From positions 5,120,001 through 5,184,000 of the forward strand of contig CP086569.2 in assembly GCA_009914755.4 (NCBI GenBank): DNA of 64,000 nucleotides, in the 5' to 3' direction. Made by a program: the position numbers and the translations under genes. This document shows positions 23,300 to 64,000 of this stretch, piece after piece (the stretch's first letter is position 1; each line of letters opens with the position of its first letter). Under the pieces are notes generated by a model. That model did no database searches. It worked only from the letters and a program-made list of their open reading frames with translations, and was not told the DNA's origin. The DNA comes from the human T2T-CHM13v2.0 reference genome, Homo sapiens.

Positions 23300-23687
23300 A
23301 TGGTCCTTATCTTATGATGAATCAATTTATGATTTTTTGACTTTATGATGGTGCAAAAGTAATACACATTCAGCATAAATTGTACTTTGAGTATGCATAC
23401 AGTCATTCAGTTTTCCACTTTCACTTCAGTATTCAGGAACTTACATGAGATATTCAACACTTTACTATAAAATAGGCTTTGTATTGGCTAATTTTGTCCA
23501 ATGTAGGCTAATGTAAGTGTTCTGAGGACGGTAAGGTAGGCTAGGCTAAGCCATGATGTTTGGCAGCTTAGGTGTATTAAATGCATTTTTGACTTAAGAT
23601 AGTTTCAATTTAGATGCTCCTTGACTTAACAATGGGTTTATCAGGACATAACCCCTTCGTAAGTCTAGAAGCATCTGTACTCTTTCC
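23300..23687. mobile_element. non-autonomous DNA-transposon-like interspersed repeat (family not assigned by me)
   Basis: Contains motifs I recognise from a common human repeat consensus (...tttgactttatgatggtgcaaaagtaatacacattcag...ggcagcttaggtgtattaaatgcatttttgacttaagata...caatgggtttatcaggacataacccc.tcgtaagtc.agaagcatctgta). It abuts the truncated L1 at 23688. Confidence 0.35.
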
Positions 23688-28495: not shown

Positions 28496-28860
28496 TTGTG
28501 CTATGGTCAGAATGTTTGTTCCTACCAAAATTCATGTTAAAATCCTCACCCCTAAGGTGATAGTATTAGGAAGTGGGGCCTTTGGGAGGTGATTAGGTCA
28601 TAGGAGTGGAGTCCTCATGCATAGGATTAGTGCCCATATAAAGGAAGCCTGAGAGAGTCCCCTCACCTCTTCCACCAAGTCAGGACACAGCAAAGAGCCT
28701 TCTATGAACAGAAAGCAGGCCATTCCTAGACAATGAATCTGTCAGAACTTTGATATTGGACTTCCCAGACTCAAGAACTGTGAGAAATAAATCTCTGTTG
28801 TTTATAAGATATCTAGTTTATGGTATTTTGTTATAGGAGGCTAAGCAAATTAAGATACCC
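28496..28860 (+). mobile_element. solo MaLR LTR, MLT1-like
   Basis: gtgctatggtcagaatgtttgttcctaccaaaattcatgttaaaatcctcacccctaaggtgatagtattaggaagtggggcctttgggaggtgattaggtcataggagtggagtcctcatgcataggattagtgcccatataaagg...gacttcccagactcaagaactgtgagaaataaatctctgttgtttataagatatctagtttatggtattttgttatagg. The start and the ...ctgtgagaaataaat.tctgttgtttataagccacccagtctatggtattttgttatagcagc end are characteristic. Confidence 0.55.
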
Positions 28861-35265: not shown

Positions 35266-36000
35266 CTTAACAATGGCAATATGTTCTGAGAAATGCCTTG
35301 TTAGGGGATTTTGTCACTGTGCAAACATCATAGAGTGTACTTACATGAACTTACACTCTATAGCCTATTACATACTTAGGCTATATGGCATAGCCTATTG
35401 TTCCTAGGCTACAAACCTGTACAGCATGTTACTGTACTGAATACTGTAGGCAATGGTAACACAAAGGTAAGTATTTGTGTATCTAAACATAGAAAAGGTA
35501 GAGTAAAAATAGTACAAAAAATAGAAAATGCTACATTTGTATAGGGCACTAAACATGAGTAGAGTTTGCAGGACTGGAAGTTGCTCTGGGTGAGTCAATG
35601 AATAAATGGTGAGTGAATGTGAAGTCCTAGGCCATTACTTTACACTACTGTGTACTTTATAAACATGTACCAGGCTAACACTAAATTTATGAAAGAATAT
35701 TTTTATTTCTTCAGTAATAAATGAACCTTAGCTTTCTATGACTCTTTTACCTCGTAAACTTTTATTTTTTTCTAACTTTTGACTCTGTTGTAATAGCACT
35801 TAGCTTAAGACAAAAACACATTTTATAGCTCAAATCGTTTTCTCTTTGCTGGGCACAGTGGTGGGCACCTGTAATTCCAGCTACTTGAGAGGCTGAGACG
35901 GGGATTCCTTGACTCCAGGCTGTAGTGCACTAAAAAGACTGCAAGATTGCACCTGTGAATAGACACTCCACTCCAGCCTGGGAAACATAAGAAGACCCTT

Positions 36001-36049
<49 letters not shown>

Positions 36050-36450
36050 TTCTTTATATTCTTATGTTATGAGCTTTTTCTATTTTTTTCTATATTTTAA
36101 ACTTTTTAAATCTTTCTGTTAATAACTAATGCACAAACATTAGCATAGGCTTGCATAGGGTCAAAATAATCAATATCACTCTTTTCACCTCCACATCTTG
36201 TCCTTGTCCTACTGGGAGGTTTTCAGGGACAGTAACATGCACAGAGCTGTCTTCTCCTATGATAACAATGTCTTCTTTTGAAATACCTCCTGAAAGATCT
36301 GCTTGAGGCTGTTTTGTAGTTAACTTTTCTTTTTTCAATAAGTAGAAGGAATATACTCTAAAATAACAATTAAAGGTATAGTATAGAAAATATATAAACC
36401 AATAACATCGTTATTTATTATCATTATCAAGTATTATGTACTGTACATAA
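35266..36450. mobile_element. ~1-kb non-autonomous interspersed repeat (family not assigned) carrying a nested Alu-monomer insertion at 35848-36054
   Basis: 35266-35847 (...tgtgcaaacatcatagagtgtacttacatgaacttacactctatagcctattacatacttaggctatatggcatagcctattgttcctaggctacaaacctgtacagcatgttactgtactgaatactgtaggcaatggtaacacaa...) and 36055-36450 (...gcataggcttgcatagggtcaaaataatcaatatcactc...cctcctgaaagatctgcttgaggctgttttgtagttaac...tatcattatcaagtattatgtactgtacataattgtatgtg) match a repeat consensus I recognise but cannot name. Confidence 0.4.
35848..36054 (+). mobile_element. free Alu-monomer-like element (right-arm/FRAM-like, diverged) with a pure 50-nt poly(A) tail
   Basis: gctgggcacagtggtgggcacctgtaattccagctacttgagaggctgagacgggg...cactccactccagcctgggaaacataagaagaccc aligns to the Alu right arm (gccgggcgtggtggcgggcgcctgtagtcccagctactcgggaggctgaggcagg...cactgcactccagcctgggcgacagag) with a ~14-bp extra segment. 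It is followed by A50 at 36005-36054. Confidence 0.6.
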
Positions 36451-36479
36451 TTGTATGTGTTATACTTTTATACCACTGG

Positions 36480-36657
36480 CAGTGCAGTAGGTTTTTGTTG
36501 TTGTTGTTGTTGTATTGTTTTTTTAAAAAGTAAAGACAGGGTCACACCATGTTGCCCTGGCTGGTCTGGAACTCCTGGACTCAAGCAATCATCCTTTCTC
36601 AGCCTTCCAAAGTGCTGGGATTACAGGTGTGAACCACCACACCTGGCCAGTACGTTT
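36480..36657 (-). mobile_element. free left Alu monomer (FLAM-like), minus orientation, with T/TTG-rich tail on + strand
   Basis: Reverse complement reads ctggccaggtgtggtggttcacacctgtaatcccagcactttggaaggctgagaaaggatgattgcttgagtccaggagttccagaccagccagggcaacatggtgtgaccctgtctttac = Alu left monomer. It sits exactly at the 3' truncation point of the adjacent L1. Confidence 0.7.
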
Positions 36658-38650
36658 GTTTATACCAGGATTGCCACAAACACATGAGTAATGCATTGTG
36701 CTATGATGTTACAATGGCTATATCATTAGGTTTTAGCTCTTATTATTTTGAGATATGTTCAATCAATACCTAGTTTATTAAGAGTTTTTAGCATGAAAGG
36801 ATGTTGAATTTTATCAAAGACCTTTCTGCATCTATTGAGATAATCATGTGGTTTTTGTCATTGGTTCTGTTTATGTGATGGATTACATTTATTGATTTGC
36901 ATATGTTGAACCAGCCTTGCATCCCAGGGATGAAGCTGACTTGATCATGGTGGATAAGCTTTTTGATGTGTTGCTGGATTTGGTTTTCCAGTATTTTATT
37001 GAGGATTTTCGCATGGACGTTCATCAGGGTTACTGGCCTGACACTTTCTTTTTTTGTTGTGCCTCTGCCAGGTTTTGGTATCAGGATAATGCTGGTCTCA
37101 TAAAATGAGTTAGGGAGGAGTCCCTCTTTTACTATTGTTTGGAATAATTTCAGAAGGAATGGTAGTGGTTCCTTTTTGTACCTCTGGGAGAATTCGGCTA
37201 TGAATCCATCTGGTCCTGGGATTTTTGTTTTGGTTCATAGGCTATTAATTACTGCCTCAATTTCAGAGCTCGTTGTTGGTCTATTCAGGGATTCAACTTC
37301 TTCCTGGTTTAGTCTTGGGAGGGTGTATGTGGTCCAGTAATTTATCCATTTCTTCTAGATTTTCTAGTTTATTTGCATAGACATGTTTATAGTATTCTCT
37401 GATGGTAGTTTGTATTTCTGTGGGATCAGTGGTGCTATTCTCTTTATCATTTTTTATTATGTCTACCTGATTCTTCTCTCTTTTCTTCCTTACTAGTCTA
37501 GCTAGCAGTCTATCTGTTTTTAAAAAAAAACTTTTCATAAAACCGGTTCCTGGATTCACTGATTTTTTTGAAGGGTTTTTTATGTCTCTATCTCCTTCAG
37601 TTCTGGTCTGATCTTAGTTATTTCTTGTCTTCTACTAGCTTTTGAATTTGTTTGCTCTGGTTCTCTAGTTCTTTTAATTCTGATGTTCAGGTGTTGATTT
37701 CAGATCTTTCCAGCTCTCTGTTGTGGGCATTTAGTGCTATAAATTTCCCTTTTAACACTGCTTTAGCTGTGTCCCGGAGATTCTGGTATGTTGTCTCTTT
37801 GTTCTCATTGGTTTCAAAGAACTTATTTATTTCTGCCTTAATTTTGTTATTTACCCAATAATCATTCAGGAGCAGGTTGTTCAATTTCCATGTAGTGATG
37901 TGGTTTTGAGTGAGTTTCTTAATCCTGATTTCTAATTTGATTGCACTGTGGTCTGAGAGACTGTTTATTATGATTTCCACTCTTTTGCATTTGCTGGGGA
38001 GTTTTTTACTTCCAATTGTGTGGTCAGTTTTAGAATAAGTGCTATGTAGGTGCTGAGAAGAATGTATATTCTGTTGATTTAGGATGGGGAGTTCTGTAGA
38101 TGTCTATTAGGTCTGCTTGGTCCAGAGCCGAGTTCAAGTCCTGAATACTTTGTTAATTTTGTGTCTTGTTGATTTGTCTGATATTGACAGTGGGGTGTTA
38201 AAGTCTCCCACTATTATTGTATCGGAGTCTAAGTCTCTTTCTAAGTCTCTAAGAACTTGCTTTATGAATCTGGTTCTCCTGTATTGGGTGCATTTATATT
38301 TAGGGTAGTTAACTCTTCTTGTTGCATTGATCCCTTTACCATTATGTAATGCCCTTCTTTGTCTTTTCTTGACCTTTGTTGGTTTAAAGTCTGTTTTATC
38401 AGAGTCTAGAATTGCAACCCCTGCTTTTTTTCTTTTTTTTTTCTTTCTTTCCATTTGCTTGGTAAATCTTCTTCCATCTGTTTATTTTGAGCCTCTGGGT
38501 ATCTTTGCATGTGAGATGGGTCTCTTGAATACAGCACACCAATGGGTCTTGACTCTTAATCCAATTTGCCAGTCTGTGTCTTTTAATTGGGGCATTTAAC
38601 CCATTTACATTTAAGGTTAATGCTGTTATGTGTGAATTTGATCCTGTCAT
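36658..38650 (-). pseudogene. L1 ORF2 remnant (endonuclease and N-terminal RT), frameshifted and 3'-truncated
   Basis: see L1 feature; ATG of MTGSNSH at 38650 (minus strand). Confidence 0.85.
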
Positions 38651-38710
38651 TATGATCCTGGCAGGTTATTTTGCACAATAGTTGATGCAGTTTCTCCATA
38701 GTGTCATTGG

Positions 38711-39725
38711 TCTTTCTATTTTGGTGTGTTTTTGCAGTGGCTGGTACTGGTTTTTCCTTTCAATATTTAGTGCTTCCTTCAGGAGCTCTTGTAAGGCAGG
38801 CCTGGTGGTGACAAAATGCCTCAGCATTTGCCTGTCTGTAAAGGATTTCATTTCTCTTTCACTTTTGAAGCTTAGTTTGGCTGGATATGAAATTCTGCAT
38901 TAAAAATTCTTTTCTTTAAGAATGTTGAATATTGGCCCCCAGCCTCTTCTAGCTTGTAAGGTTTCTGCAGAGATCCACTGTTAGTCTGACGGACTTCCCT
39001 TTGTAGGTAACCTACCTTTCTCTCTGGTTGCTCTTAACATTTTTTCCTTCATTTCAGCCTTGGAGAATCTGATGATTATGTGTCTTGGGGTTGCTTTTCT
39101 CAAGAATTATCTTACTGGTGTTCTCTGTAGTTCCTGAATTTGAATGTTGGCCTGTCTTGCTAGGTTGGTGAAGTTCTCCTGGATAATATCCTGAAGTGTG
39201 TTTCCCAACTTGGTTCCATTTTCCCCATCACTTTCAGGTAAACCAATTAATCATAGGTTTGGTCTTTTCACATAGTCCTGTATTTCTTAGAGGCTTTGTT
39301 TGTTCCTTTTCATTCTTTTTTCTCTAATCTTGTCTTCACACTTTATTTCAGTAAGTTGATCTTTAATCTCAGATATCCGTTCTTCCACTTTATCGCTTGG
39401 CTATTGATACTTGTGTATGGTTCACAAAGTTCTCGTGCTGTGTTTTTCAGCTCCATAACGTCATTTATGTTTCTCTCTAAACTCGTTACTCTAGTTAGCA
39501 GTTCCTGTAACCTTTTATCAAGGCTCTTAGCTTCCTTGCATTGGGTTAAAACACACTCCTTTAACTCAGAGGAGTTTGCTGTTACCTACCTTCCGAAACC
39601 TACTTCTGTCAATTTGTCAGTCTCATTCTCCATCCAGTTTTGTGCCCTTGCTGAAGAGGAGTTGCGATCATTTGGAGGAGAAGAAGCATTCTGGTATTTG
39701 GAATTTTCAGCGTTTCTGTGCTGGT
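38711..39725 (-). pseudogene. L1 ORF1 remnant (disrupted)
   Basis: ORF1 C-terminus recognisable at 38711-38851; ~60-nt inter-ORF spacer to the ORF2 ATG; no long intact frame upstream; extent inferred from canonical ~1 kb ORF1 length. Confidence 0.6.
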
Positions 39726-41075
39726 TTTTCCTCACCTTCATGGATTTATCTACCTTTGATCTTTCAGGCTGATGAACTTTGGATGGGGCTTTTGCGTGGG
39801 GGTCCTTTATGTTGATTTTGATGTTGTTGCTTTCCGTTTGTTAGTTTTTCTTCTAACAAGCAGGCCTGTCTGCTGCAGGTCTGCTGTAGTTTGCTGGAGG
39901 TCCACTCCAGACCCTGTTCGCCTGGGTATCACCAGTGGAGGCTGTAGAACAGCAAAGATTGTTGCCTGCTCCTTCCTCTGGAAGCTTCGTCCCAGAGGGG
40001 CACCAGCCTGATGCCAGCTGGAGATCTCCTGTATGAGATGTCTGTCAACCCCTATTGGGAGGTCTCTCCCAGTCAGGAGGCACTGGGGTCAGGGACCTAC
40101 TTGAGGAGGCCATCTGTCCCTTACCAGAGCTGGTGTGCTGTGCTGGGAGAATCCCTTTTTTTCAGGATCAGCTGCTCTCTTCAGAGCCAGCAGGCAGGAA
40201 TGATGATATCTGCTGAAGCTGCACCCACAGCCTCCCCTTCCCTCAGGTGCTCTGTCCCAGGGAAATGGGGGTTTTGTCTATAAGTTCCTGACTGGGGCTG
40301 TTGCCTTTCCTTCAGAGATGCCCTGCCCAGTGATGAGGAATCTAGAGAAGCAGTCTGGCCACAGCCGTTTTGCTGCACTGTGGTGAATTTGCCCAGTCCA
40401 CACCTCCCAGCCTCCTTAGCACTGTCAGGGGAAAATTGCCTTATAAAGCCTCAGTAATGGCGGATGCCCCTCTTCCCACCAAGCTCGATCATCTCAGGTC
40501 AACTTCAGACTGCTGTGCTGGCAGTGAGAATTTCAAGCCAGTGATTTTTAGCTTGCTGGGCTTCGTGGGAGTGGGATCTGCTGAGTGAGACCACTTAGCT
40601 CCCTGGCTTCAGCTCCCTTTCCAGGGGAGTGAATGGTTCTGTCTTGCTGGGGTTCCAGGTGCCACTGGGGTAGGAAAAAGACTCTTGCAGCTAGGTCGGT
40701 GCCTGCCCAAACAGCCACCCAATTTTTGGCTTGAAACCCAGGGCCCTGGTGGTATAGGCACAGGAGGGAATTTCCCAATCTGCAGATTGCAAAAACTATG
40801 GGAAAAGTGTAGTAACATGGCCATGTAGCACAGTCCCTCATGGCTTCCCTTGGCTAGGGGAGGAAGGTCCCCCAGCTTCATGAACTTCCCAGGTGAAGCG
40901 ATGCCCCACCCTGCTTCTGCTCACCCTCCGTGGGTTGGACCTACTGCCTAACCAGTTCCAATGAGATGAACTGGGTACCTCAGTTGGAAATGACAAAATC
41001 ACCTTCCTTCTGTGTTGGTCTCGCTGGGAGCTGTACACAGGAGCTGTGCCTATTCGGCCACCTTGGCCCCTCTCC
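39726..41075 (-). promoter_or_regulatory. L1 5'UTR (contains the L1 internal sense promoter and antisense promoter in intact elements)
   Basis: GC-rich, stop-poor sequence between ORF1 and the canonical L1 5' terminus. Spurious ORFs 39772-40011, 40011-40283, 40548-40881 etc. lie here. Confidence 0.6.
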
Positions 41076-46753: not shown

Positions 46754-47062
46754 TTTTTTTTTGTTGTTTCTTTGTTTGTTTTTGAGATGGAGTCTTGCTC
46801 TGTCGCCCAGGCTGGAGTGCAGTGGCTCAATCTCGGCTCACTGCAATCTCCGCCTCCTGGGTTCAAGCAGTTCCCTGCCACAGCCTCCCAAGTAGCTGGG
46901 ATTACAGGCACCCGCCACCACACCCGGCTAATTTTTGTATTTTTAGTAGAGACAGGGTTTCACCATCTTGGCCAGGCTGGTCTTGAACTCCTGACCTTTT
47001 GATCCACCCTCCTCAGCCTCCCAAAGTGCTGGGATTATAGGCATGAGCCACCGTGCCCGGCC
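46754..47062 (-). mobile_element. Alu (full dimer), minus orientation
   Basis: ttttttttgttgtttctttgtttgtttttgagatggagtcttgctctgtcgcccaggctggagtgcagtggctcaatctcggctcactgcaatctccgcctcc...cctcccaaagtgctgggattataggcatgagccaccgtgcccggcc. Confidence 0.95.
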
Positions 47063-47900: not shown

Positions 47901-49689
47901 CCTGTACTTATTTGTGACAATAACTTAATGTTCCATTATGTTTAATTTAACATTCTTTAAATTTAAACATTATTAGCTAATGGCAGTTTTCAAAGTACCA
48001 CCAGTTCTAACTCCTGACCCTTATGTCAGTTACTAATGAGACACTTGTGATTTACATTAACATTTGGAAACATGATCAAAATATTTTTTAAAAACAGATA
48101 ATTTTCCAGTAAGGAAATATTCTATATAATTGCCAGGTACAGTTTTATAGATTCTATGTGTTAATTACTTACTGAAGAATTGTCAAGGTGTAAGTGGAAA
48201 AGACAGAAAGGTATCATTTTGAAATTTAATAGGAACTTCAGAGAGCTAGAGACAACACTAGTCTTTTAAAATTGTAAAATGTGACCTACTGTATCTTGTA
48301 GGATGTAATCTTTTCAATTTGTATATCTTAAATAAACCATTGAATGCACTTCAGAAATCAGAACTTTTGGAAGGCTCATTGCATTTAACATTAGTTGAAC
48401 TCAGTATTGGACCTAGAGTCATTATACCTATTTGGGAATATTTTATTATGAATGAAGGTGCCCCAACACTACAGTTTATAGAGCTCTTAAGCACAAATCT
48501 CTTTTAGCAATATTTTTCCTTCAATGCCATGAGATTCATAGCTCTAATTTTAACAGTCCTATGATCCAACTTGTCTTCACTGTAAATAGAAGCAAAATTT
48601 TGTATTATGAAGGCTGTACCAAGCAATAATCAATTCTTATTAAATAGAAAATATGTGATTCCTTTATTCACACAAGCATATAATCAGAAAAAAATATTTT
48701 TACTGATTTTATTTTAATCCTTATAGTACCATGCAATTGTCTTAGTTTTTCTTCAGAACAGCATCACTCTAGTATGATCAAATTATCCACAGATAATTTC
48801 GTATCTGTGAAGCTCCCCCATCCCACGTTTTTTCATTATATTATACCATGGCCATCTCTGTGTTAATAATGTCATCACTAGATCATATGTATCATTTATC
48901 AAAAGTGAGCAGGAACACATCCTGAATGCAAAATCATTTTAGTAATAGCAACTAATTAAAGTGAATTAAAAGTGAACTGATTAAACTGTATAGTTAATGG
49001 ATGTAGTGGCTTGAAAATATAAAATTATATATATATATATCCAAAGACAATTCATCAATTTTGCCAAGTAAAATGAATATATTCTTGTTTCAGAATTAGT
49101 CTCTTATTTTTAAGATAATCCTATGACTTTTGAATGTTATAGAATTTAATTATTCAGCAGATAACAAATTGTAATCATGATTTCTCTGATCAATACAATG
49201 TATTTTTGATCTACAAAGAGGGTATATGAGCAATAAAAATCCCAGAAATGTTGCCCATAATGATTTCAAATGCCTTAGAATGATTAATATTATAAATTTA
49301 GAAAGATATTTTTGTGTAGATTTATTTTTGATTTTTACGAAAAATAATGATTTTTGAGAGTTTTTATTTCATAGTTTCACGGTAAGTTGTCTTGTTTAAT
49401 GGTCCTCTAATGAGAGTCAGGGTAAGAGATGTGATTAAATATAATATTGTGGCAAAAGGAGATGTCTATAGAATAAAAATTGTGAAATAATCATATTCTA
49501 AAATTGTTCTAATTAGGGTAGTCTGACATCATTAAAATTTCATTACTCTAATATGATCATATTAAAATGCCAAAAAAAGAGTCTATTATAAACATATTTA
49601 GAAAACTTAATCAGCATTCCCAGTTTTCTCTCATACACACATATAAATATATATGTTTCTGAAATTATCAAAGAACCATGTCTTAATCT

Positions 49690-50100
49690 GCTCAGGCTGC
49701 TAGAACAAAATGCTATTAACTAGGTGGCTTATAAACAACATAAATTTATTTCTCAGAGTTCTGGAGGCTAAGAAGTCCTAGATCAAATTGTTGGCAAATT
49801 CAGTGTCTGGTGAAGGCTCACTTCCTGGTTCATAGACAAGGAGGCATCTTTTCACCGTGTACTCACAGGGAAGAAAGGGTAAGAGATCTTTGAAGTCACT
49901 TATATAAGGGCACTAATCTGATTTATAAGGGATCTGCCCTCATGACCTAAGCACTTACCAAAGGCCAACTTCCAGATGCCATCACATTAGTGATTATGTT
50001 TTAACATATGAATTTTAGGGTGACACAAACATTCACTCTATGTTAGACCATGTGGCTTAAATAATCTGAATCTTACTTCGGACCTACTAAAACAGAACAG
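49690..50100 (+). mobile_element. ancient LTR/MaLR-like interspersed repeat (family not assigned)
   Basis: ...tgctagaacaaaatgctattaactaggtggcttataaacaacataaatttatttctcagagttctggaggctaagaagtcctagatcaaattgttggcaaattcagtgtctggtgaaggctcacttcctggttcatagacaagg...tataagggcactaatctgatttataagggatctgccctcatgacctaagcacttaccaaaggccaacttcc...acatatgaattttagggtgacacaaacattcactctatg. This is a very common human repeat signature. Confidence 0.5.
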
Positions 50101-50128
50101 AATATTTGAATTTTGAAACCCAGGAATT

Positions 50129-51625
50129 TGTGATGGCAGTGGCGGCTGTCTGGAGTGGCCACTGCCATGACACCAGCTGCAGTGGGGGAGGCTTGACCAG
50201 GGTTGCATGCTCCATGGAGCCTGTGGGAACCAGGAACAGGTGGGAGCCCCTCCTCCTTCTGAATTGGAGGGGTGACAGCCTCGCCTTCCCAGGTGCAGTT
50301 GCAGGGGCCCAGCTGGGACTGCTGCCCCAGGTATCCTGTGCTCTTGGGGATCCAGGAAGCCCTCCTGCCCCAGCAGGCTTGAAAGAGCCTGCACCTGCTG
50401 CTTGGCCTCTCAGCTCTCCAGCTGCCCACTCCAATTTTGGAGCAAAGTTGAGGCCAAGCCTGGGCACTGTGGCAACCTGGTGGGATGTGTGTGAGCTTTT
50501 GGCGGTCCTGACATGCCCATGGCTGCCTCAGCCCCCTCCAGACTTTGACCACCCACAAACAAGGGAGGGAAGCAGAGGGGGTGCTGAGGGCAGCTGGGCA
50601 TGGGCCTGAAGGTGTCCTTTGGCATGAACAGCCTGGGTGCCATAGATGTCATGATTGATAGTGGGTGCCATGGATGACATGATTGATAGCGTCAGGAGGC
50701 ATAGAGGCTTCTGCTCAGAAAAGGGCATGTCCCTGGTGAAGTCCCACCTTCCGGTCAGAGAAGGCCTGAAGCCTGGGGGCCCGTTGGCCAGTTCCTCAGA
50801 CCAGAGTGAGAATGCGTGCTTTTTCTGGCCTGCCTATGGCTGTCCATGGACCAATCAGCATGGACTTTCTCCCGTCTCAAGCCCATAAAAACTCCAGGAC
50901 TCAGTGAGAATTGGACAAACGACAGATGATCTAACTGCTGTTAGGAGCTACCCACTCCGTGTCTTCTGAGAGGTGCGCTTTCACTCAACAAAGCATCTCT
51001 TCACTTTGCTCACACTCCAATTGTCTGCATACCTCATTCTTCCTGGACACAGGACTCAGGACCCACCAAATGGCAGGGCTGAAAGAGCTGTAACACAAAC
51101 AGGGCTGAAACACCACCCCCCCACCCCAACTTGCCACGTTGGGGGTGATGAGGATAGAAGAGAGCATAAGAGAAGAGCTGTGCCCTTTGGGGAGCCTGGA
51201 CCTAGGAGCTCCCTGAGCCAGGGCTGTGACACCCTTTTTGGGGCTCTGTGGGTCCTGGCATCTCCAAGATTCCAGGTGCCACCATGTTCCCTGGTGCCCA
51301 ATTCACTTGCAGTACAGTTGGTTCAGCTGCAGCCTTGCAGGGATCCAGTGCCCACGCTGGCACCTGCAGCTGCCCACCTCACCACAGCCAGTGTACCTGG
51401 TTATGCGCAGTGGCCGGAACTTGTGCTTGCTCACTCACACACCCCTCTCCTCCCTGCATTTGACTTGCCTTTGGCAGGCATGGGTTCCGGGCTGGTAGTG
51501 AGACCTGAGTGCAGCCTGCCAAGCCGAGTGGGTGGAATAAGCCCAGTGGGCCCGAGCAAAACTCGAGCAAAGGCACCATCGGCCACAGAGGATTCTGTCT
51601 GGTGAAGCAATACCCCAAAGATCTT
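50129..51625 (+). mobile_element. ERV class I (LTR9/LTR12-like) solo LTR, ~1.5 kb, plus orientation
   Basis: GC-rich, stop-poor block beginning TGTGATGG. Contains gaccaatcagcatgg (CCAAT), cccataaaaactcc (TATA-like) and tcactcaacaaagcatctcttcactttgctcacactccaattgtctgcatacctcattcttcctggacacaggactcaggacccaccaaatggcagggctgaaagagctgtaacac. The last closely resembles the R/U5 region of ERV1 LTRs (...cactcaataaagc...caccctccacttgtccgcgtacctcattcttcctgggcgcaggacaagaactcgggacc..cgaacggcagggctgaaagagctgtaacactc). No internal ERV sequence on either side. All track ORFs 50038-51647 (up to 210 aa, both strands) are artefacts of this composition. Confidence 0.6.
50851..50995 (+). promoter_or_regulatory. 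LTR promoter/terminator motifs: CCAAT box (50851-50855), TATA-like cataaaaa (50884-50891), poly(A)-signal-like caacaaagc (~50986-50994)
   Basis: Order CCAAT > TATA > AATAAA-variant on + strand fits U3-R organisation of a retroviral LTR. Functional activity not demonstrable from sequence. Confidence 0.4.
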
Positions 51626-54091
51626 GTGACATATGCATGATTAACAAATTAACTAGGTGATTTCTACGTAGCTGATGTTTTGAAAACCACTTGATAGCTA
51701 CTGGTTGCTGTAGCTAGCTATCAATTTTATCCAAATTTTCAATCCCTTATCTAATTCCCAAATGTTATGAAAGGCAACAAAAGTAGTGTTACAAAAGGTC
51801 CAAATAATATATTGGGGGTAAATATATAAGATTGATTTATGGGTTTTAGAGTTGGAGACTATATCTTTCTACTAGTTTGTATTCCCATCCTCAATTTAGA
51901 AATAATTAAGAAGTATATTTTTATACCTTTTTAAGAAAAATGAAAAGGACAGTGCCATATCAATTTACTCCTGGGACCATAGCATAATGATCTTTTTTTT
52001 TTTAATTCTTTAACTTGTCAGTCACTTTGAGGTTATTTTTAATACCGTGTGTGTGTATGTGTGTATGTGCGTGTGGAGTATGTGGGTGTGGTAGACAGTA
52101 TATAGAGATATTTTTGTTTGTATGGAAAATAAGTAGAGGGGAGTCTGCTTTTAGAAGAAATACACCTCTGTAGAGAGATCCACAAGTAAAAGACTACAGC
52201 AACACTACAGATATTAGTTGATTACAATTCCTCCCCACAACTCCACCCACAACTATATTTACCACAACGTTGCTTGCTACTATCTTCCACACTGGTGAAT
52301 ATTATTACTGGAAGATGCAACTATTTTAATTTATTATTTGATTATCTATGATGATTATAGAACTTCAATGTTTTTTAAATGTAAGAAAAGTTCAAAGGAA
52401 ACATTGGTCTATTCATCTCATATTAATTTCCAGGAAGTGACACATATTACAAAGCAGCAATTATTTTCCATGTGCTAATGAACACCAGGTAAAAAAGATG
52501 AAACAAACATGTTTCATATACACCAGAATGGGTCTAAACAAATATGTTACCACTATCCATAAACTCAACACACTAACGAAATTACTAGCATACTGGCCGA
52601 TGTGTGCATTCTCCAATTTTATTAGGAATACATTCTAATAATTATTATTTAAAAACTGATATTTATTCACCATCATAACTTTTTGTTGCATTTTTTACTA
52701 ACATTAAACAAGAAATATTTTGATCCAAGCGTTTATGCCATTAATGACAATGCCAGGTTTTTCCTCTTTCATTGTATGCTACAAAATTATTCCAACATCT
52801 AATCCAAGTCAGAAACCATCTGTTGCTTGAATGACATTTGGCTTGTTTAAAATGTATTAATTAAACAGACATGTTGTGTAACTATGGCAAAGGGAGAATT
52901 ATTTTGAAAATATAAAGGAGTGACACCAGAGATGAAGCAGTGTTCAAACCAAACTTGTGGCTTATTTTATGGAAACATATTTTCAAATAACAACTAGAAA
53001 AACTTAACTATTGACTAATATTCTTAAAAATAAAATGATTATTTGGATCATATGTGATCCATGGTTCCATCATCTCCCAAGTCTATTTCATCACTGACAA
53101 TGGAGTAAGTAGTTTAGGTTTGATCTTGTTAATTATGCTAGTAGACTACAGGGACAAAAATGAAAAGGGTTAATAGCATCATAAAAGTTCTGAAAACCAT
53201 AACAAATTAGGATGGGAATTATAGCCTGGAATAGGAAGACTTATACATGAGTCTTAACTATCTTCAAACACAGGAGGGCTTGTCACGTAGAAGAACAATC
53301 ACACATATTTTATGTAGCTAAAGGCATATCTAAAGAAAATTGGTGGGAACTTCTCCTTCTGTCAATGTTTTCATTTCTAGCAGCTACCAACCCTCCTAAT
53401 ACACACTGTGAGCTGGAGAAACAGATATCCAAGTTTGTTAAAATTAAAAATAAAAGCAGAGTATGGTAGATATGATTCTGAAAACAAACTTTGTGATAAA
53501 TACTTTAGGAATTTACATGCCTTTATTCCCCCACTTACTTCCTGATATGAGGTTCTTTTAGGATAGCTGAGGCTATCAGATAACTATTAGATAGTCAAGG
53601 TGCTTTGGTAATTCATAAGTTTAAATGTAAGTCACTAAATATGGATGTGGTTAGTACCAAAAACAATGTAGATATTTCTACTATTCTTTTTTTGACTGAT
53701 AATTAGGCTTTTCATTGAAACCATTGTCTATTTCAGTTTTAATATTTGGTTTTAGTATTACTTAATGGCTTTTTTGACACATGCCAGTTTCAAAGCGTAT
53801 TAAGTTTCAATTCTGTCATATTTTAAATGTTAGTCAAAGAATTGTAGTTTCTCAAACATTCACAATATTGCTATTTCATTTGCAAAGTTCACACAACTGC
53901 AGTAATAGCCAATTTAACAATTTATAAACAATAACATTACTGAAAGAAGAAGCTTCATCTTGCGTATCTACAAATAGATTATTTCCATTCTGATTGAGCT
54001 GAAATGAATTATGATTCAAGGAATGAAGGAAAGTTGCCTGCTTATAATGCCATGTAGTCTTCTAATCAGCAAAAAATATGTCTGACTGTGT

Positions 54092-54332: not shown

Positions 54333-54738
<406 letters not shown>

Positions 54739-56212: not shown

Positions 56213-57187
56213 TTTTTTTTTTTTAATTATACTTAAGTTTTGGGATACATGTGCAGAACGTGCAGGTTTTTTACATAAGTATACACATGCCATGGTGGTT
56301 TGCAGCATCCATCAACCCATCACCTACATTAGGTATTTCTCCTAATGCTATCTCTCCCCTAGCCCCACACCCTCCAACAGGCCCCAGTGTGTGATGTTTC
56401 CCTCCCTGTGTCCATATGTTCTTATTGTTCAACTCCCACTTAAGAGTGACAACATGCAGTGTTTGGTTTTCTGTTCCTGTGTTAGTTTGCTGAGAATGAT
56501 GGTTTCCAGCTTCATCCATGTCCCTGCAAAGGAAATGAACTCATCCTCTTTTATGGCTGCATAGTATTCCATGGAGTGTATGTGCTACATTTTCTTAATC
56601 CAGTCTATCATTGTTGGACATTTGGGTTGGTTCCAAGTCTTTGCTATTGTGAACAGTGCCGCAATAAACATACATGTGCATGAGTCTTTATAGTAGAATG
56701 ATTTATAATCCTTTGGGTATATACCCAGTAATGGGATGGCTGGGTCAAATGGTATTTCTGGTTCTAGACCCTTGAGGAATCGCCACACTGTCTTCCACAA
56801 TGGTTGAACTAATTTACACTCCCACCAACAGTGTAAAAGTGTTCCTATTTCTCCACATCCTCTCCAGCATCTGTTGTTTCCTGACATTTTAATGATCGCC
56901 ATTCTAATTGGTGTGAGATGATACCTCATTGTGGTTTTGATTTGCATTTCTCTAATGACCATTGATGATGAGCTTCTTTTCATGTTTGCTGGCTGCATAA
57001 ATGTCTTCTTTTGAGAAATGTCTCTTCATATCCTTTGCCCACTTTTTAATGGGGTTGTTTGTTTTTTTCTTGTAAATTTGTTTAAGTTCTTTGTAGATTC
57101 TGGGTATTAGTCCTTTGTCAGATGGATAGATTGCAAATATTTTCTCCCATTCTGTAGGTTGCCTGCTCACTCTGATGATAGTTTCTT
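56213..57187 (-). mobile_element. young primate L1 (L1PA-like) 5'-truncated 3' fragment (~975 bp: ORF2 C-terminus, 3'UTR, poly(A)), minus orientation, flanked by 10-bp TSD TAAATGTTGT
   Basis: Poly-T 56213-56224 then the reverse complement of the L1PA 3'UTR/ORF2 end, near-consensus (...ttacactcccaccaacagtgtaaaagtgttcctatttctccacatcctctccagcatctgttgtttcc...). Minus ORF 56585-56998 ...[86 protein letters not shown]...WNQPKCPTMIDWIKKM and 56952-57170 ...[55 protein letters not shown] at 56201-56210 and 57188-57197. Confidence 0.9.
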
Positions 57188-58440
57188 TAAATGTTGTAAA
57201 TTTTTTATATATTATGAATTTCTACATAGATCCAACAAGCTATTGACAATGTTTTAGTTAGTTTATTTACAAGAATGCAAATGTAACCACCCAGTGGGTT
57301 CACCTTGCCCGCTGCCTAGAGAGAGCCAATTTATCAAGACAGGGGGATTTCAGTAGAGAAGGAGTAATTCACGCAGAGTTGGCTGTGTAGGAGTCCAGAG
57401 TTTTATTATTACTCAAATAAGTCTCCCTGAGCATTTGGGGAGAGAGTTTTTAAGGACAACTTGGTGGGTGAGGGGAAGCCAGTGAGCCAGGAGTGCTGAT
57501 TGGTCAGTGGTGAAATCGTAGAGATTCAAAGCTGTCTTCTTGGGCTGAGTTAGTTCCTGGGTGGGGGCCACAAGATCAGATGAGCCAGTTTATCGATCTG
57601 GGTGGTGCCAGCTGGTCCATCAAGTGCAGGATCTGCAAAATATCTCAAGCACTGATCTTAGGAGCAGTTTAGGGAGGGTCAGAATCTTGTAGCCTCCAGC
57701 TGCATGACTCCTAAACCATAATTACTAATCTTGTGGCTAATGTTAATCTTACAAAGGCAATCTAGTCCCCAGGCAAGAAAGAGGTCAGCTTTGGGAAAGG
57801 GCTGTTAGTGTATTTGTTTTAAACTATAAACTAAGTTTCTCCCAAAGTTAGTTCAGCCTATTCCCAGGAATGGACAAGGACAGCTTGGAGGTTAAGAAGC
57901 AAGACAGAGTTGGCTAGGTTAGATACCTTTCACTGTCTCAGTCATAATTTTGCAAAGGCGGTTTCACAAAGGCTTATTTAGTACTCTGAGACTTTAGAGT
58001 TGAAGCAGCTAAACTTTTTATAAACTTTTATGAAACTCTGCTTTTGAAGAATACAGTATTGATGATTATTTCAGTAGCTCCCTACTAAATATCTTTAGTA
58101 CTAATAAATGATAGATGACTGACAGGCTAGGTAATCCATGTATTTTAATGCCCTGTAATTCAGGTTAACATTCGGATTATGTCTGTGTAGAGGTGATCAG
58201 AAGACGACCTGAAGCTTTTATTTTCCTCTTTTCACTGTGGGTTCTAGATACAAAGACAAACAGAAAAAGGGATATTGACTAGGCAAAAGCATACAAAAAG
58301 GTATTTCAGTTACATTATTTCCCTGATAAATGCTTTAAATCTTAGAAAATACAGTGTGGTTTAATCAGATAATACAGTCAATCTCACTCTTCACAGCTTC
58401 CACACAACCTAACACTCATCCCCCAAAAAACTAAAACCAA

Positions 58441-59830: not shown

Positions 59831-60602
59831 GAGCCTATTTTTGGAGACTACTACATATAGCATAGCAATGCTGCAAACAAAAATGCTGCTACAAGATCTG
59901 GTGAAGATGTTACAAACTTCTTCTTTCGGAAACCAAATGCTTCATCTTTATCTTTTTATTTGTATATATATTTTTATATTCTGCTAGGAATACCATTTAT
60001 GATGATAACTATAATTTGTTTTCATAATTACCATTAACTGTTATCCATATTATGTAATTACTTTTTTCTTAGAAAGTAAAATCAATTTAAATAAATTCCA
60101 ATTCAAAATTTTGTCTCTAAGATTCTTCTAAAGGATGATGTACTTTTAGTTTTCTAAGCCTACATGATTGAATAAATTTGTGTTATTATTCACAGTTTCA
60201 GCTCACTAGCAACTTACAGATACAGCAAAAAAGTATGGTTATATTTATCCACATTTATTACTCAAAAAATAAGTTATTGCCAAATAATACCTAAATAAAT
60301 ACATGTTAAAATTATGGTTGGAATTTCCAGTTTGCTCAAATGTGCTATAAAGCTGACTGTCTCTTGCTTTAGAACAAGTTGACTTTCATTCTGCATCTGG
60401 CTGTGCCTTGTTTTGAAATATAATGGAAGCAACACTGCCTTCAGGTGAAGAAGGTTTGAACACAGAATTGTGTTATTCACAAAAGCCTGAAATTGTTCAC
60501 AACTCAAGATAATGTTAATGTGTCTTCACCAGATAGCCGAAATAATGCATTTTCTAAATTGCAGCATTAAGCAATGATTCAGATCATATCTGAAACCCTG
60601 TA

Positions 60603-60622
60603 ATTTTCATTCTCCCTTTCAG
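60603..60622 (+). promoter_or_regulatory. 3' splice site: polypyrimidine tract plus AG acceptor
   Basis: aattttcattctccctttcAG|TCCCAG. Confidence 0.75.
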
Positions 60623-60822
60623 TCCCAGCGGCGTGTCACATTTCACCTGCCAGAAGGCTCTCAGGAAAGCAGCAGTGATGGTGGACTGGGAGACCATGAT
60701 GCAGGCAGCCTTACCAGCACATCCCATGGCCTGCCCCTTGGCTATCCTCAGGAGGAGTACTTTGATCGTGCTACACCCAGCAATCGCACTGAAGGGGATG
60801 GCAACTCCGATCCTGAATCTAG
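60623..60822 (+). CDS. PCDH11X: internal coding exon (200 bp, 66 codons + 2 nt) of a delta1-protocadherin cytoplasmic domain containing the conserved CM3 / RRVTF PP1-binding motif; best guess PCDH11X (or its Y gametologue PCDH11Y), other delta1 paralogues (PCDH7/PCDH9/PCDH1) not excluded
   Basis: Frame from 60623: [66 protein letters not shown] with no stop. Bounded by tttcag| and |gtaagt. RRVTF(H/Q)LP(E/D)GSQES...GLGDH...[11 protein letters not shown](E/N)S is the CM3 region shared by delta1-protocadherins. The residues differ from my recollection of PCDH9 (…[20 protein letters not shown]…) and fit my recollection of PCDH11X. The track ORF 60633-60908 is the wrong frame. Confidence 0.75.
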
Positions 60823-60828
60823 TAAGTG
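60823..60828 (+). promoter_or_regulatory. 5' splice site (consensus GTAAGT donor)
   Basis: GAATCTAG|gtaagtgat. Confidence 0.75.
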
Positions 60829-63251
60829 ATACCTCTCTGGTTCCTCAATATAAACGGGCTTACTGTGTTTGCAACTCAAGCTATCATAGCCATAATAACA
60901 TGGGCTAATTTATTATGTTATTGTGAATAGTGACACATTTTTGAAAGGTAAACATACAGAATTAGATGGATGGCAAGTATAAGGCAGTTTATAATATTTT
61001 AAATGTATGATCATAACTACGCTGAATGAAATTTATTATAGTGACTTTGTTAAGGCATAGATAGAATTTTCCATTTATGTACACCTGTAATTTATTTGTA
61101 TATAAACAGCCAATTTATTTTATTTTATTCATTTATTTGTGAAGGTATAAATTTTTTCTTATATATAAAAATATTTCCTAGATTTTATTTTTATTTTTAT
61201 TAGAGATAAAAACCATTGACAGTTATTTTCTTTCTGAGGAAATAAGAGATCCTGACTCCAATGTAGGAGAGGGCATCTGAGGTTTTCAGCAATATACTGA
61301 AATCACACACCTGTGCCATGTTACTGTTTAGAAAGGTATTCACATTTGGTCTTCAGACAGAAGGCACAAAATCTGTGTTTTGCAAATTCCAAAGATGTTG
61401 AACTCTTTAAAAGGATCATAGAGTTGATATTAAATAAAATTTCATTAAATGTATTATCTTGAACGTGTAGCGAACAACCTTGCTGATTTATAATTTCAGG
61501 AAATACAAAATTTGATAAGATATATATTTCTCGGAAGAGTCTTGAAATTGCAAGAAGCTACAATTTGCTCCATTTATGTTATGTACATAAAAGTATGTAG
61601 ATACAAAAAAGCATACAATATATGTGAGAAAAAAGTCATAGCCATAAACCAATATGAAAAAAAATGGGCCAAATACCTGGCAAAAACATAAATAAGGTAA
61701 TATAAACTAGACATTTTGAAAGGTTATTTTGAGCATTATGGATTGCAGGGATGTATAATTCAAATAAAGCTTCTAGGCTTTAGAACAAAATAGCTTCCCT
61801 ATCATTGTATTTTAATCCTCTATTTTTGAAACTTCAAAAAATAGGGAAATGGATTGGCTAAACATTATGATATAATCTAAGGCTAAACATATGGAACCAA
61901 TGACAACATAACATCAACTTTTTCTCTCTACAGATGTAGATGCTATATATTATAGGTATTTTTAATGTAAAAATATTAGAGACTTTTGAGTCAGCAAGTT
62001 CAGACAGTCCTAAAAATCTACTATCTCCATTTTCAATTTTATACTTGGAATAAATGATCAACATTTGTTCTGAAGATAAAAAATTCCCCTATACCTTGTG
62101 TCACTAAACTATCTTTAATTTACTTTGTTTAGCACAGCAAAATGACTCCTGGTAGAAATACATAGTTGTGATTATATTTACTTGTGTAATGAACTAAGAG
62201 TTAATCTCTAATAAGAATATGATCATAAGTAACAAATACACATTAAGCAAGGGTGCCACTGATCTTCTTTCCTCCATAAATCATTGTTTTAGTTGTAGGT
62301 CTATCATGCCCTGTTAAATAAGAATATAGAAATGGGATAAGTATCATTTTTATAAACTAGAAAGAGTTGATTCATTTGTACATGATGTGTTACTAAGCCT
62401 CTTTCATAGAGGATTGCATAGCAACAATTAAAGAGTAAACTCAGAGTAAGCATCCACAGTGCACATCTCACCCTGAAATAAAATTCCAACTGAATGAGAC
62501 TCAAATGGAATACTGTTGATAATAGTAGGAGAATTGGTATGTGTCAGAAATAGTAAAACATTTAACATTAAATATAGCTTTATTAATCCCAATTATATTT
62601 AGAAATAAGTAGTTGTTTTAAAAAGTATTCAAATGCATAGTTCTTAACAGAAGCTGGTCTTGTTTATAGTTAAGGATATAAGTGCTAGCATCAATGTATT
62701 AGCTGACATACTTAGGGGCTTTTTTTAAAAAAGGGTGCTTTCTGTTAGGAGCTAAACATTTCTCTCTTCTAATTATATTTACACTATTATCTTGAACATT
62801 AAATATCTTGTTCATATTTACTCTACAGGATGAAGGACTCACAAAATTTGCATTAAAAACTTTAGTTGCTCAATCGATTTTATTTTAAAATCTAGATGTC
62901 TGTGGGCAATGATAATAGTAAAACAAATTGTATATTTTGCTGCTTATTATTTTAATAAACTTATGCAAAGGGTAGATATAATTAAAAATGAATGCCCATT
63001 TTCTACAAGTCTAACAATATTGTTAAGCGAATGTTTAAATGTTATTTTTTTACTATGAATAATACTAACAAACTGCTCTCCTACTAAATGTGAAACCTCC
63101 CCCTAAATCATGTTCCAAGAAAATTTTTGTTAGGAGTTTTGTTTTGGGACAGTCAGAGACCTTACTAAAAGTGCAAGAAGCACAATAATTTACTTGAAAT
63201 GAAGCTCCATTGTCTTAATGTGTCACGGTAGTGAAATGTTTAACATAGTAC

Positions 63252-63286: not shown

Positions 63287-64000
63287 GTTTTAATTAAAAA
63301 GAAAAAACATAGCTGGTTTAGAATTGGCCATAGCAAAGTAATCTCTTTAGGCTAATACTGATGATAAGGTATTTTGATTCTTCAAAAAGCAAAGCTATAG
63401 CTCTGAAATAGCACCCGATAATGGGTTTTATGATATGGAGCAGATGCCAATAAACTGTGCATTGTTTGTCAATAGCACCACTGATAGGAATGTAAAGTGT
63501 TAGAGGAAATAAATGCTGTCCTTAAGCAATGGAATTAATTTATGCAGTTCCCATTTCACATTTTGAAATGTATTACATCTTCAATCTGCTTTCTTTCTTG
63601 CTAGTGAATTGCCAAAATAGCACATAGTTCTGCAAATCCTTTGTAAATTCACAAAACAGGAATAAACATGACATTTATGAATAAGGGTATTCTGTAAAAT
63701 TTGCTAGAGGGATTTATTAATACTGCTTTAAAAATATAGTTCCCTGGTTGATAAAAATCTGCTGCTTAGGTGAAGAAATCACACAATTCATTCTCTTAAG
63801 TCTTTTGCCAAGACTATTAACTTTTCTTTTTAAAATAAAGAAAACAAACTCAAGCCAATTATTACTTTTTGAGGAGACAAAGTCAATAAAATATCCTGTC
63901 TCATTCCATCTGAAGACTTTGTAATTTTTAAATTTTATAATTGCAATCTCTTTACTGTGGCCATTGGACTAAGGGTCACTTAATGCCATTCTATACAGTT

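What the first reader, a model, noticed from the sequence alone, without database searches (positions are those of the whole stretch)
60603..60828. Single bona fide coding exon: delta1-protocadherin CM3 exon with RRVTF PP1-binding motif and canonical splice sites
An open 200-bp frame is flanked by a polypyrimidine-AG acceptor and a GTAAGT donor. It encodes [71 protein letters not shown] is the protein-phosphatase-1 docking motif that defines conserved motif CM3 of delta1-protocadherins (PCDH1/7/9/11). The exon length leaves phase 2 (66 codons + 2 nt), as expected for an internal exon. It is the only sequence in 64 kb with protein-like composition outside TE ORFs. Its surroundings (large introns, L1-rich, AT-rich) fit the huge PCDH11X/PCDH9/PCDH7 loci. 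Paralogue assignment (my recollection: PCDH11X/Y) is from memory and needs confirmation.
Basis: partly seen in the sequence, partly recalled or inferred. Interest (0 to 1): 0.6.

Follow-up and report, generated by a model that had tools for sequence, protein, structure and literature searches.

The report
Known PCDH11X exon with PP1-docking motif
This is a real but ordinary internal coding exon of the brain cell-adhesion gene protocadherin-11 (PCDH11X, or its human Y copy); it encodes the already described RRVTF motif that docks protein phosphatase 1.

Summary
Window 60623-60821 (+) is an exon-like unit with a 15/17 pyrimidine tract plus CAG acceptor and a GTAAGT donor at 60822-60827. It encodes exactly the 66-residue peptide quoted.

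One correction: the exon is 199 nt, not 200. It starts in phase 0 and ends with 1 extra base, not 2.

Homology decides the case. All 47 hits (best E = 1.5e-30) are vertebrate PCDH11X or PCDH9 fragments. Bear PCDH11X-like is 85% identical and mammalian PCDH9 is 69%. The window is collinear with the annotated bear and Arctic-fox PCDH11X loci.

- AG| and |GTAAGT are invariant in seven sequences from mammals to alligator.
- The only exon indel is in frame.
- dN/dS is 0.11-0.53.
- Bear and alligator gene models splice at the orthologous boundaries.

Published reviews describe RRVTF (motif CM3) as the PP1-alpha binding site that defines delta1-protocadherins, and place it in the long PCDH11X/Y isoforms.

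Alu elements show the host is a primate. X and Y copies cannot be told apart here.

Verdict: correct reading of a known exon of a known gene, so low interest. Side observations are a deeply conserved 255-nt upstream intronic block, a conserved non-coding element at 63427-63610, and an unidentified GC-rich block near 50.1-51.65 kb.

The parts
60367..60602 (+). Deeply conserved part of the upstream intron; a candidate splicing-regulatory region
   Evidence: One of only two window blocks that align to the alligator locus. Identity to alligator is 65-82% per 40-nt bin, as high as the exon, while the downstream intron falls to 38%. The stop codon at 60575-60577 in the exon frame rules out a coding extension. 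A regulatory role is inferred, not shown.
60591..60596 (+). Candidate branch-site region (TGAAAC), 27-32 nt upstream of the exon
   Evidence: TGAAAC is invariant in the six-sequence upstream alignment; TGAAA is invariant in all seven sequences of the alignment. Use as a branch point is inferred from position only.
60603..60622 (+). Polypyrimidine tract (15 of 17 pyrimidines) followed by the CAG acceptor
   Evidence: The AG is conserved in all seven aligned sequences. The orthologous acceptor is used in the bear and alligator gene models.
60623..60821 (+). Internal coding exon of PCDH11X (or PCDH11Y): 199 nt, phase 0 at the start and phase 1 at the end, 66 codons plus 1 nt
   Evidence: Translation. 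Homology at E = 1.5e-30 to PCDH11X/PCDH9 fragments. Nucleotide identity is 76-91% against lower flanks. dN/dS is 0.11-0.53, with p = 5e-10 against alligator. The only indel is a 3-nt in-frame gap in bear and fox.
60629..60643 (+). Codons for RRVTF, the RVxF-type PP1 docking motif (CM3 core)
   Evidence: Q2, R3, V5, T6, F7, L9 and P10 are invariant across PCDH11X and PCDH9 from fish to mammals. The literature assigns this motif to PP1-alpha binding. It has the highest pLDDT of an otherwise unstructured model.
60785..60820 (+). Second invariant block RTE(G/A)DGNSDP(E/N)S at the C-terminal end of the exon; function unknown
   Evidence: R55, T56, E57, D59, G60, N61, S62, D63, P64 and S66 are invariant in alignment A1. 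The acidic Ser context resembles CK2-type sites; that is my own inference and was not tested.
60822..60827 (+). Splice donor GTAAGT
   Evidence: It is invariant in all seven aligned sequences. The alligator gene model splices from the orthologous donor in phase 1 to an exon 54 kb downstream.

Best explanation
Window 60623-60821 (+) is the CM3-bearing internal coding exon of the primate protocadherin-11 gene: PCDH11X or, if the source is a human Y chromosome, its copy PCDH11Y. It sits in a very large, AT-rich, L1- and Alu-laden intron landscape.

The exon is spliced in phase 0 to an upstream exon that lies outside the window. In bear that exon is about 94 kb upstream. It is spliced in phase 1 to a downstream exon that is also outside the window.

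It adds 66 residues of unstructured cytoplasmic tail. At the N-terminal end of this segment is RRVTF, an RVxF-type short linear motif. In long isoforms of the protein, this motif is expected to dock the catalytic subunit of protein phosphatase 1 (PP1-alpha) at the membrane. It would thereby recruit or inhibit the phosphatase, as reported for the paralogue PCDH7c. Short isoforms that end before this exon lack the motif, so exon usage decides whether the adhesion molecule is coupled to PP1.

Shown here:
- exon anatomy
- homology and orthology
- purifying selection
- splice-site conservation
- lack of predicted fold

Taken from the literature: PP1 binding by CM3 and the isoform dependence.

Inferred: that this particular orthologue binds PP1, and that the conserved upstream intronic block regulates inclusion.
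For: - Sequence and translation.
- All 47 single-sequence hits and all 75 profile hits are vertebrate PCDH11X or PCDH9 fragments, best E = 1.5e-30.
- Bear PCDH11X-like is 85% identical against 69% for mammalian PCDH9. The 11X-type residues are present (EGSQESSS..., [14 protein letters not shown] against PCDH9 [14 protein letters not shown]).
- The window is collinear with the bear PCDH11X-like locus (53.8-55.8, 59.2-61.2 and 63.2-64.0 kb) and with the fox PCDH11X locus on a 123-Mb contig (24.5-30.0 and 59.3-64.0 kb).
- AG| and |GTAAGT are invariant in seven sequences, and there is a 3-nt in-frame gap in bear and fox.
- dN/dS is 0.11-0.53. Synonymous excess has p = 5e-10 against alligator and 5e-7 against L005.
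- The bear gene model joins ...[14 protein letters not shown] at the orthologous acceptor.
- The alligator model uses both the acceptor and the donor, the latter in phase 1.
- The AlphaFold2 model has mean pLDDT 58.9, pTM 0.13 and no secondary structure, which fits a disordered tail carrying a linear motif.
- Literature: RRVTF in CM3 is the PP1-alpha interaction motif of PCDH7c/d. CM3 is a conserved delta1-protocadherin motif binding PP1-alpha. Longer PCDH11X/Y variants interact with PP1-alpha via CM3 and Pcdh7c inhibits PP1-alpha via CM3. CM3 is a defining characteristic of delta1-PCDHs and is present in PCDH11X/Y.
- Alu heads show the host is a primate.
Against: - No transcript data could be consulted, so use of the splice sites in this species is inferred from conservation and from gene models of other species.
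- Those models are computational. The bear model reads through the donor into the intron.
- No exact match to the peptide was found in the protein collection; the best hit is 89% identical. The species and the identity with human PCDH11X therefore rest on my recollection of the human sequence plus the presence of Alu. The likely reason for the missing match is that the window's frame has no ATG, GTG or TTG start, so gene callers would not call it.
- PP1 binding was not tested here.
- The PCDH7 preprint notes that an isoform lacking RRVTF still associates with myosin phosphatase, so the motif is not the only route to PP1 complexes.
- Pfam and PDB have no model covering this segment.
Confidence: 0.93

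Rival explanations
1. The exon is the CM3 exon of the paralogue PCDH9 (or another delta1-protocadherin), not of PCDH11X/Y.
For: PCDH9 fragments are strong hits at 60-69% identity and E down to about 4e-20. Several bird sequences of the 11X type carry the label 'PCDH9' in their source records.
Against: Mammalian PCDH9 sequences are only 69% identical. They differ at diagnostic positions: [57 protein letters not shown]. The bear PCDH11X-like sequence is 85% identical and shares the window's residues. The window is collinear over tens of kb with the annotated bear and fox PCDH11X loci.
Confidence: 0.02
2. The window is the human Y-linked copy (PCDH11Y, Yp11.2) rather than PCDH11X. The exon function is the same, but it lies in the hominin-specific duplicate.
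For: The literature states that PCDH11X and PCDH11Y are 98.1% identical, and that probes for long isoforms can be 100% identical between the two. Nothing in this exon need differ between them. Alu content shows a primate host.
Against: There is no positive evidence. The Y copy exists only in the human lineage (abstract). If the source is any other primate, or a human X, this is PCDH11X. None of the tools holds a human X or Y reference.
Confidence: 0.3
3. The segment is a chance open frame with fortuitous splice-like signals, or a decayed relic that is no longer under coding constraint.
For: Open frames of this length are common in the window: 133 of at least 70 codons. Three frames are open across the segment because it is GC-rich. 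The fox orthologue is more diverged, with RHVTF and dN/dS 0.53.
Against: Protein homology reaches E = 1.5e-30. There is a significant synonymous excess. The only indel is in frame and the splice sites are invariant across roughly 300 My of divergence. Annotated models splice at these boundaries.
Confidence: 0.01
4. The exon is real, but in PCDH11X the RRVTF motif is not a working PP1 dock. The conserved tail would serve another partner, for example through the equally invariant [12 protein letters not shown] block.
For: RVxF-like strings are common in proteomes (general knowledge). The second block is as conserved as RRVTF. A PCDH7 isoform without RRVTF still associates with myosin phosphatase. 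I read no primary PP1-binding data for PCDH11X, only review statements.
Against: The motif and its flanks (QRRVTFHLP) are invariant in PCDH11X and PCDH9 from fish to mammals. Reviews attribute PP1-alpha interaction of long PCDH11X/Y variants to CM3, citing Vanhalst et al. 2005.
Confidence: 0.12

Closest known systems
PCDH11X / PCDH11Y long-isoform cytoplasmic exon carrying conserved motif CM3
   Same: Peptide of the 11X type. Collinear synteny with annotated PCDH11X loci of bear and fox. The same exon boundaries as in the bear and alligator PCDH11X gene models. RRVTF present.
   Different: Nothing found that differs. X or Y copy, and the exact species, remain undetermined.
PCDH9 CM3 exon (closest paralogue)
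   Same: An exon of the same length class (66-67 codons) with the same invariant blocks QRRVTFHLP...SQES and RTE.DGNSDP.S.
   Different: Only 60-69% identical. The middle part differs ([31 protein letters not shown]), with one extra residue.
PCDH7c/d CM3 (RRVTF), the experimentally studied PP1-alpha-binding delta1-protocadherin tail
   Same: The same RRVTF core. The same idea of long isoforms gaining a PP1 dock by alternative 3' exon usage.
   Different: PCDH7 and PCDH1 were not retrieved by sequence or profile search with this exon. Similarity therefore seems confined to the short motif. PP1 inhibition was reported for Pcdh7c, not shown for this gene here.
RVxF-type PP1-interacting proteins in general (e.g. 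MYPT1)
   Same: The [RK]-x(0,1)-[VI]-{P}-[FW] docking motif lies in a disordered segment (MYPT1 RVxF mentioned).
   Different: Here the motif is carried by a transmembrane adhesion molecule. No additional PP1 motifs (SILK, phi-phi) were seen within this exon on inspection.

Membership tests
delta1-protocadherin conserved motif 3 (CM3) | Presence of the RRVTF (RVxF-type) motif in the cytoplasmic tail | tested here: met
   RRVTF is at residues 3-7 of the exon product, window 60629-60643.
delta1-protocadherin conserved motif 3 (CM3) | Sequence homology of the segment to annotated delta1-protocadherin tails | tested here: met
   All hits are PCDH11X or PCDH9, with E down to 1.5e-30 and 6.5e-36 with a profile. 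PCDH7 and PCDH1 were not retrieved.
delta1-protocadherin conserved motif 3 (CM3) | Same polypeptide carries seven extracellular cadherin repeats, a transmembrane segment, CM1 and CM2 | not testable with these tools
   Those exons lie outside the window. tblastn with all retrieved proteins and with the bear upstream-exon peptide found nothing else in the window.
delta1-protocadherin conserved motif 3 (CM3) | Binds protein phosphatase 1 alpha | not testable with these tools
   Literature statements only. No solved structure covers this segment.
PCDH11X orthologue (as against PCDH9) | Closer in sequence to PCDH11X than to PCDH9 of the same vertebrate class | tested here: met
   Bear PCDH11X-like is 85% identical, against 69% for mammalian PCDH9. 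Diagnostic residues are listed.
PCDH11X orthologue (as against PCDH9) | Conserved gene order and collinear non-coding sequence with annotated PCDH11X loci | tested here: met
   Collinear blocks with bear L001 and fox L006, the latter on a 123-Mb contig.
PCDH11Y (human Y copy) | Y-specific diagnostic substitutions relative to X | not testable with these tools
   No human X or Y reference is available. The literature says the pair is 98.1% identical.
Internal protein-coding exon | AG acceptor with pyrimidine tract and GT donor, conserved across species | tested here: met
   a 15/17 pyrimidine tract, with AG| and |GTAAGT invariant in seven sequences.
Internal protein-coding exon | Purifying selection on the reading frame | tested here: met
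   dN/dS is 0.11-0.53. Fisher p = 5e-10 (alligator), 5e-7 (L005), 1-2e-3 (L002, bear) and 0.07 (L003, fox). Only an in-frame indel is present.
Internal protein-coding exon | Boundaries used in transcripts | tested here: inconclusive
   Gene models of bear (acceptor) and alligator (acceptor and donor, phase 1) splice at the orthologous sites. These are annotations of other species, and no RNA data could be consulted.

The most novel reading that the evidence does not exclude
The exon is flanked by two non-coding sequences conserved from primate to alligator: about 255 nt of upstream intron (60367-60622) and a 184-nt element 2.6 kb downstream (63427-63610). The upstream block is as conserved as the exon itself. 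These could be cis-regulators, either intronic splicing elements or an enhancer. They might control whether the CM3 exon is included, and hence whether protocadherin-11 is coupled to PP1 in a given neuron. No such element has been described as far as my literature searches went, though I did not search for it specifically.
Probability: 0.3. Interest if true: 0.3.

Novelty: already known. Interest (0 to 1): 0.07.

Why it matters
It matters little beyond annotation. The exon and its PP1-docking motif are textbook features of delta1-protocadherins. PCDH11X/Y is a much-discussed gene pair, as a human-specific X-Y duplicate and a candidate in cerebral asymmetry and language. It also anchors the whole 64-kb window inside the 3' intron landscape of PCDH11X/Y. 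The only mildly useful new pointers are the deeply conserved intronic flank and the downstream non-coding element. These could be tested as regulators of isoform choice.

Tried and rejected
- A Pfam scan of the peptide gave no family, even at E up to 10. No curated model covers this tail segment.
- A PDB sequence search gave only a spurious CBS-domain hit at E = 0.028.
- Rfam over the whole window gave nothing at gathering threshold.
- A profile search meant to reach the PCDH7 and PCDH1 CM3 regions returned only PCDH11X and PCDH9 fragments. The four-paralogue claim therefore rests on the literature.
- A full-text search for the peptide string [10 protein letters not shown] found no paper.
- I searched six-frame translations for remembered neighbouring human PCDH11X peptides (RKSEGK, KVAGK, WIHPQPQ, TFIPGL, AEITVQ and others). 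I also ran tblastn with the bear upstream-exon peptide. Nothing was found, so neighbouring exons are outside the window.
- Open-frame length was rejected as a significance test, because there are 133 comparable frames.
- The GC-rich block at 50.1-51.65 kb has no Pfam hit, no copy elsewhere in the window or in the bear and fox loci, and no clear terminal repeats. It is left unidentified. I ran no further search on it.
- The second splice-plus-frame candidate, 23430-23512, translates to an AT-rich, non-protein-like peptide. It was set aside as chance.
- Distinguishing X from Y, and naming the species, is not possible with the collections on offer.

Full report
**1. What is in the sequence**

Window 60580-60830 reads ...ctgaaaccctgtaattttcattctccctttcag|TCCCAGCGGCGTGTCACATTTCAC...GATCCTGAATCTA|gtaagtgata.
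- The acceptor AG is at 60621-60622, preceded by a tract with 15 pyrimidines in 17.
- The donor GTAAGT is at 60822-60827.
- The exon is therefore 60623-60821, which is 199 nt. It translates in phase 0 to [66 protein letters not shown] plus one spare base, A.

The peptide was quoted exactly. The stop-to-stop open frame is 60578-60826.

**2. Is it more than chance?**

Frame length is not informative. The window contains 133 stop-free stretches of at least 70 codons, and three frames are open across this GC-rich segment.

A stricter test is more telling. I required at least 13 of 15 pyrimidines, a YAG acceptor, an open frame of 50-300 nt and GTAAGT. Only two places on both strands pass, and one of them is this exon. 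The other, 23430-23512, encodes an AT-rich, non-protein-like peptide.

GC rises to 0.55-0.56 over the exon. The window mean is 0.35 and the adjacent intron is 0.2-0.36.

**3. Homology**

The peptide has no Pfam family and no solved relative. Against 5.8 billion proteins it finds 47 hits, with a best E of 1.5e-30. Every named hit is a vertebrate PCDH11X or PCDH9 fragment, or an unnamed equivalent.

Reading the sequences shows two clear types:
- **11X type:** ...[16 protein letters not shown]...[13 protein letters not shown]. This includes bear PCDH11X-like at 85% identity and three unnamed mammalian contigs at 88-89%.
- **PCDH9 type:** ...[57 protein letters not shown]. Mammalian members are 69% identical.

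The window is of the 11X type. A profile built from both types retrieved 75 proteins, again only PCDH11X and PCDH9. PCDH7 and PCDH1 were not reached. The exon as a whole is therefore shared by the PCDH11X/PCDH9 pair, and the link to the other two delta1 members is the short RRVTF core reported in the literature.

No hit is 100% identical. The likely reason is that the window's frame has no ATG, GTG or TTG, so ORF callers would skip it. Each of the three unnamed mammalian contigs happens to have an upstream in-frame start.

**4. Orthology and conservation**

The bear locus L001, annotated as PCDH11X-like, aligns collinearly with window 53.8-55.8, 59.2-61.2 and 63.2-64.0 kb. The fox locus L006, annotated PCDH11X on a 123-Mb contig, aligns with 24.5-30.0 and 59.3-64.0 kb. 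The remaining matches are L1 copies.

I aligned seven sequences: the window, three unnamed mammals, bear, fox and alligator.
- AG| and |GTAAGT are invariant.
- The only indel inside the exon is a 3-nt in-frame gap in bear and fox.
- Exon nucleotide identity is 76-91%, against 38-71% for the downstream intron.
- Nei-Gojobori dN/dS is 0.11-0.53.
- Synonymous excess has p = 5e-10 against alligator, 5e-7 against L005, about 1-2e-3 against L002 and bear, and 0.07 against L003 and fox.

Gene models in other species use the same boundaries. The bear model joins an exon about 94 kb upstream (...MKESTTVEIWIHPQPQ|gt) to the orthologous acceptor in phase 0. The alligator model uses the orthologous acceptor. 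It also splices from the orthologous donor, in phase 1, to an exon 54 kb downstream.

No neighbouring PCDH11X exon lies in the window. This fits introns of more than 60 kb upstream and more than 3 kb downstream.

**5. Host**

Alu heads lie at 47027-47062 (-) and 54333-54368 (+), and there are Alu-like translations elsewhere. An L1 with a reverse-transcriptase match lies on the minus strand at about 33-41 kb. The host is therefore a primate.

The peptide matches my recollection of human PCDH11X/Y. That is a lead, not a test. PCDH11Y is a hominin-specific duplicate that is 98.1% identical to PCDH11X. No tool here can separate the two.

**6. How it works**

The AlphaFold2 model built with the seven-sequence alignment has mean pLDDT 58.9, pTM 0.13 and no secondary structure. 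Its highest confidence is over residues 1-10. Of the residues, 68% are S, G, D, E, P, T or Q. The segment therefore looks like a disordered tail carrying linear motifs.

Two blocks are invariant from fish to mammals in both paralogues: Q-R-x-V-T-F-x-L-P...S-Q-E-S and R-T-E-x-D-G-N-S-D-P-x-S.

The first block contains RRVTF, which fits the RVxF PP1-docking consensus. Several papers describe its role:
- RRVTF in CM3 is the PP1-alpha interaction motif of the long PCDH7 isoforms c and d, and it is absent from the short ones.
- CM3 is the extra conserved motif of delta1-protocadherins and binds PP1-alpha.
- Longer PCDH11X/Y variants interact with PP1-alpha through CM3, and Pcdh7c inhibits PP1-alpha through it.
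- CM3 is a defining characteristic of delta1-PCDHs.

The most likely mechanism is that inclusion of this exon gives long protocadherin-11 isoforms a docking site. That site would tether, and possibly inhibit, the PP1 catalytic subunit at adhesion sites.
- **Shown here:** the exon, its conservation, the motif and the predicted disorder.
- **From the literature:** PP1 binding and its dependence on isoform.
- **Inferred:** that this orthologue behaves in the same way.

One caveat applies. A PCDH7 isoform without RRVTF still associates with myosin phosphatase. The function of the second invariant block is unknown.

**7. Comparison with what is known, and verdict**

This is the known CM3 exon of a known gene. 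Nothing about it departs from the published description. The corrections are small:
- The exon is 199 nt and ends in phase 1.
- The statement that it is the only protein-like sequence is too strong as worded.

Novelty is 'already known' and interest is low.

**8. Things seen in passing**

- Only two blocks of the window align to the alligator locus. One is the exon together with about 255 nt of upstream intron (60367-60622). This stretch is 65-82% identical per 40-nt bin, as high as the exon, and contains an invariant TGAAAC 27-32 nt before the exon.
- The other block is 63427-63610. It has stop codons in all six frames and is also conserved in bear and fox. Both blocks are candidate regulatory elements.
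- A block at about 50.1-51.65 kb has 55-60% GC, is CpG-depleted and has long open frames in many frames. It has no Pfam hit and no counterpart in the carnivore loci. It remains unidentified.
- The fox orthologue has RHVTF, the highest dN/dS (0.53) and a SINE insertion in the conserved upstream intron.

Noticed in passing
window 60367-60622: About 255 nt of intron immediately upstream of the exon is conserved from primate to alligator. Identity is 65-82% per 40-nt bin, as high as the exon itself, while the downstream intron drops to 38%. It includes an invariant TGAAAC at 60591-60596. This pattern is typical of regulated exons, but no known splicing-factor motif was identified.
   Followed up: partly
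window 63427-63610: A second block conserved to alligator (73% over 184 nt), also present in bear and fox. It is AT-rich and has stop codons in all six frames, so it is a conserved non-coding element about 2.6 kb downstream of the exon.
   Followed up: partly
window ~50100-51650: A 1.5-kb block with 55-60% GC in a 35% GC window. It is CpG-depleted (observed/expected 0.04-0.4) and has open frames of up to 211 codons in several frames on both strands. It has no Pfam hit, no copy elsewhere in the window and no counterpart in the bear or fox loci. It contains a 28-nt tandem duplication at 50634-50689. Its identity is unknown; it could be an old lineage-specific insertion.
   Followed up: partly
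window 49680-50035 and 28510-28855: Two copies of an interspersed repeat, about 72% identical and in opposite orientation. The repeat is also present in the bear and fox loci. The first copy abuts the GC-rich block.
   Followed up: partly
window ~33200-41000 (-), 56500-57200, 47027-47062 (-), 54333-54368 (+): A long L1 lies on the minus strand, with a reverse-transcriptase match at 36791-37234 and a GC-rich 5' end at 39.8-41 kb. There are further L1 fragments and several Alu elements. The host is therefore a primate.
   Followed up: partly
L006 29355-29549 (Arctic fox): The fox orthologue of the exon is unusually diverged: RHVTF instead of RRVTF, 67% identity and dN/dS 0.53. A SINE is inserted in the otherwise conserved upstream intron. 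This may reflect relaxed constraint in canids.
   Followed up: no
window 60785-60820: The C-terminal block RTE(G/A)DGNSDP(E/N)S of the exon product is as invariant across PCDH11X and PCDH9, from fish to mammals, as the RRVTF motif. In the papers I read no function is attached to it.
   Followed up: no
window 23430-23512 (+): This is the only other place in the window with a strong pyrimidine-tract acceptor, an open frame and a GTAAGT donor (83 nt). The peptide is AT-rich and not protein-like, so it is probably a chance match.
   Followed up: partly
window 4876-5296: A purine/pyrimidine-rich low-complexity stretch gives long poly-E/K/R or poly-L/S/P open frames in several frames. It is a simple repeat, not coding.
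   Followed up: no
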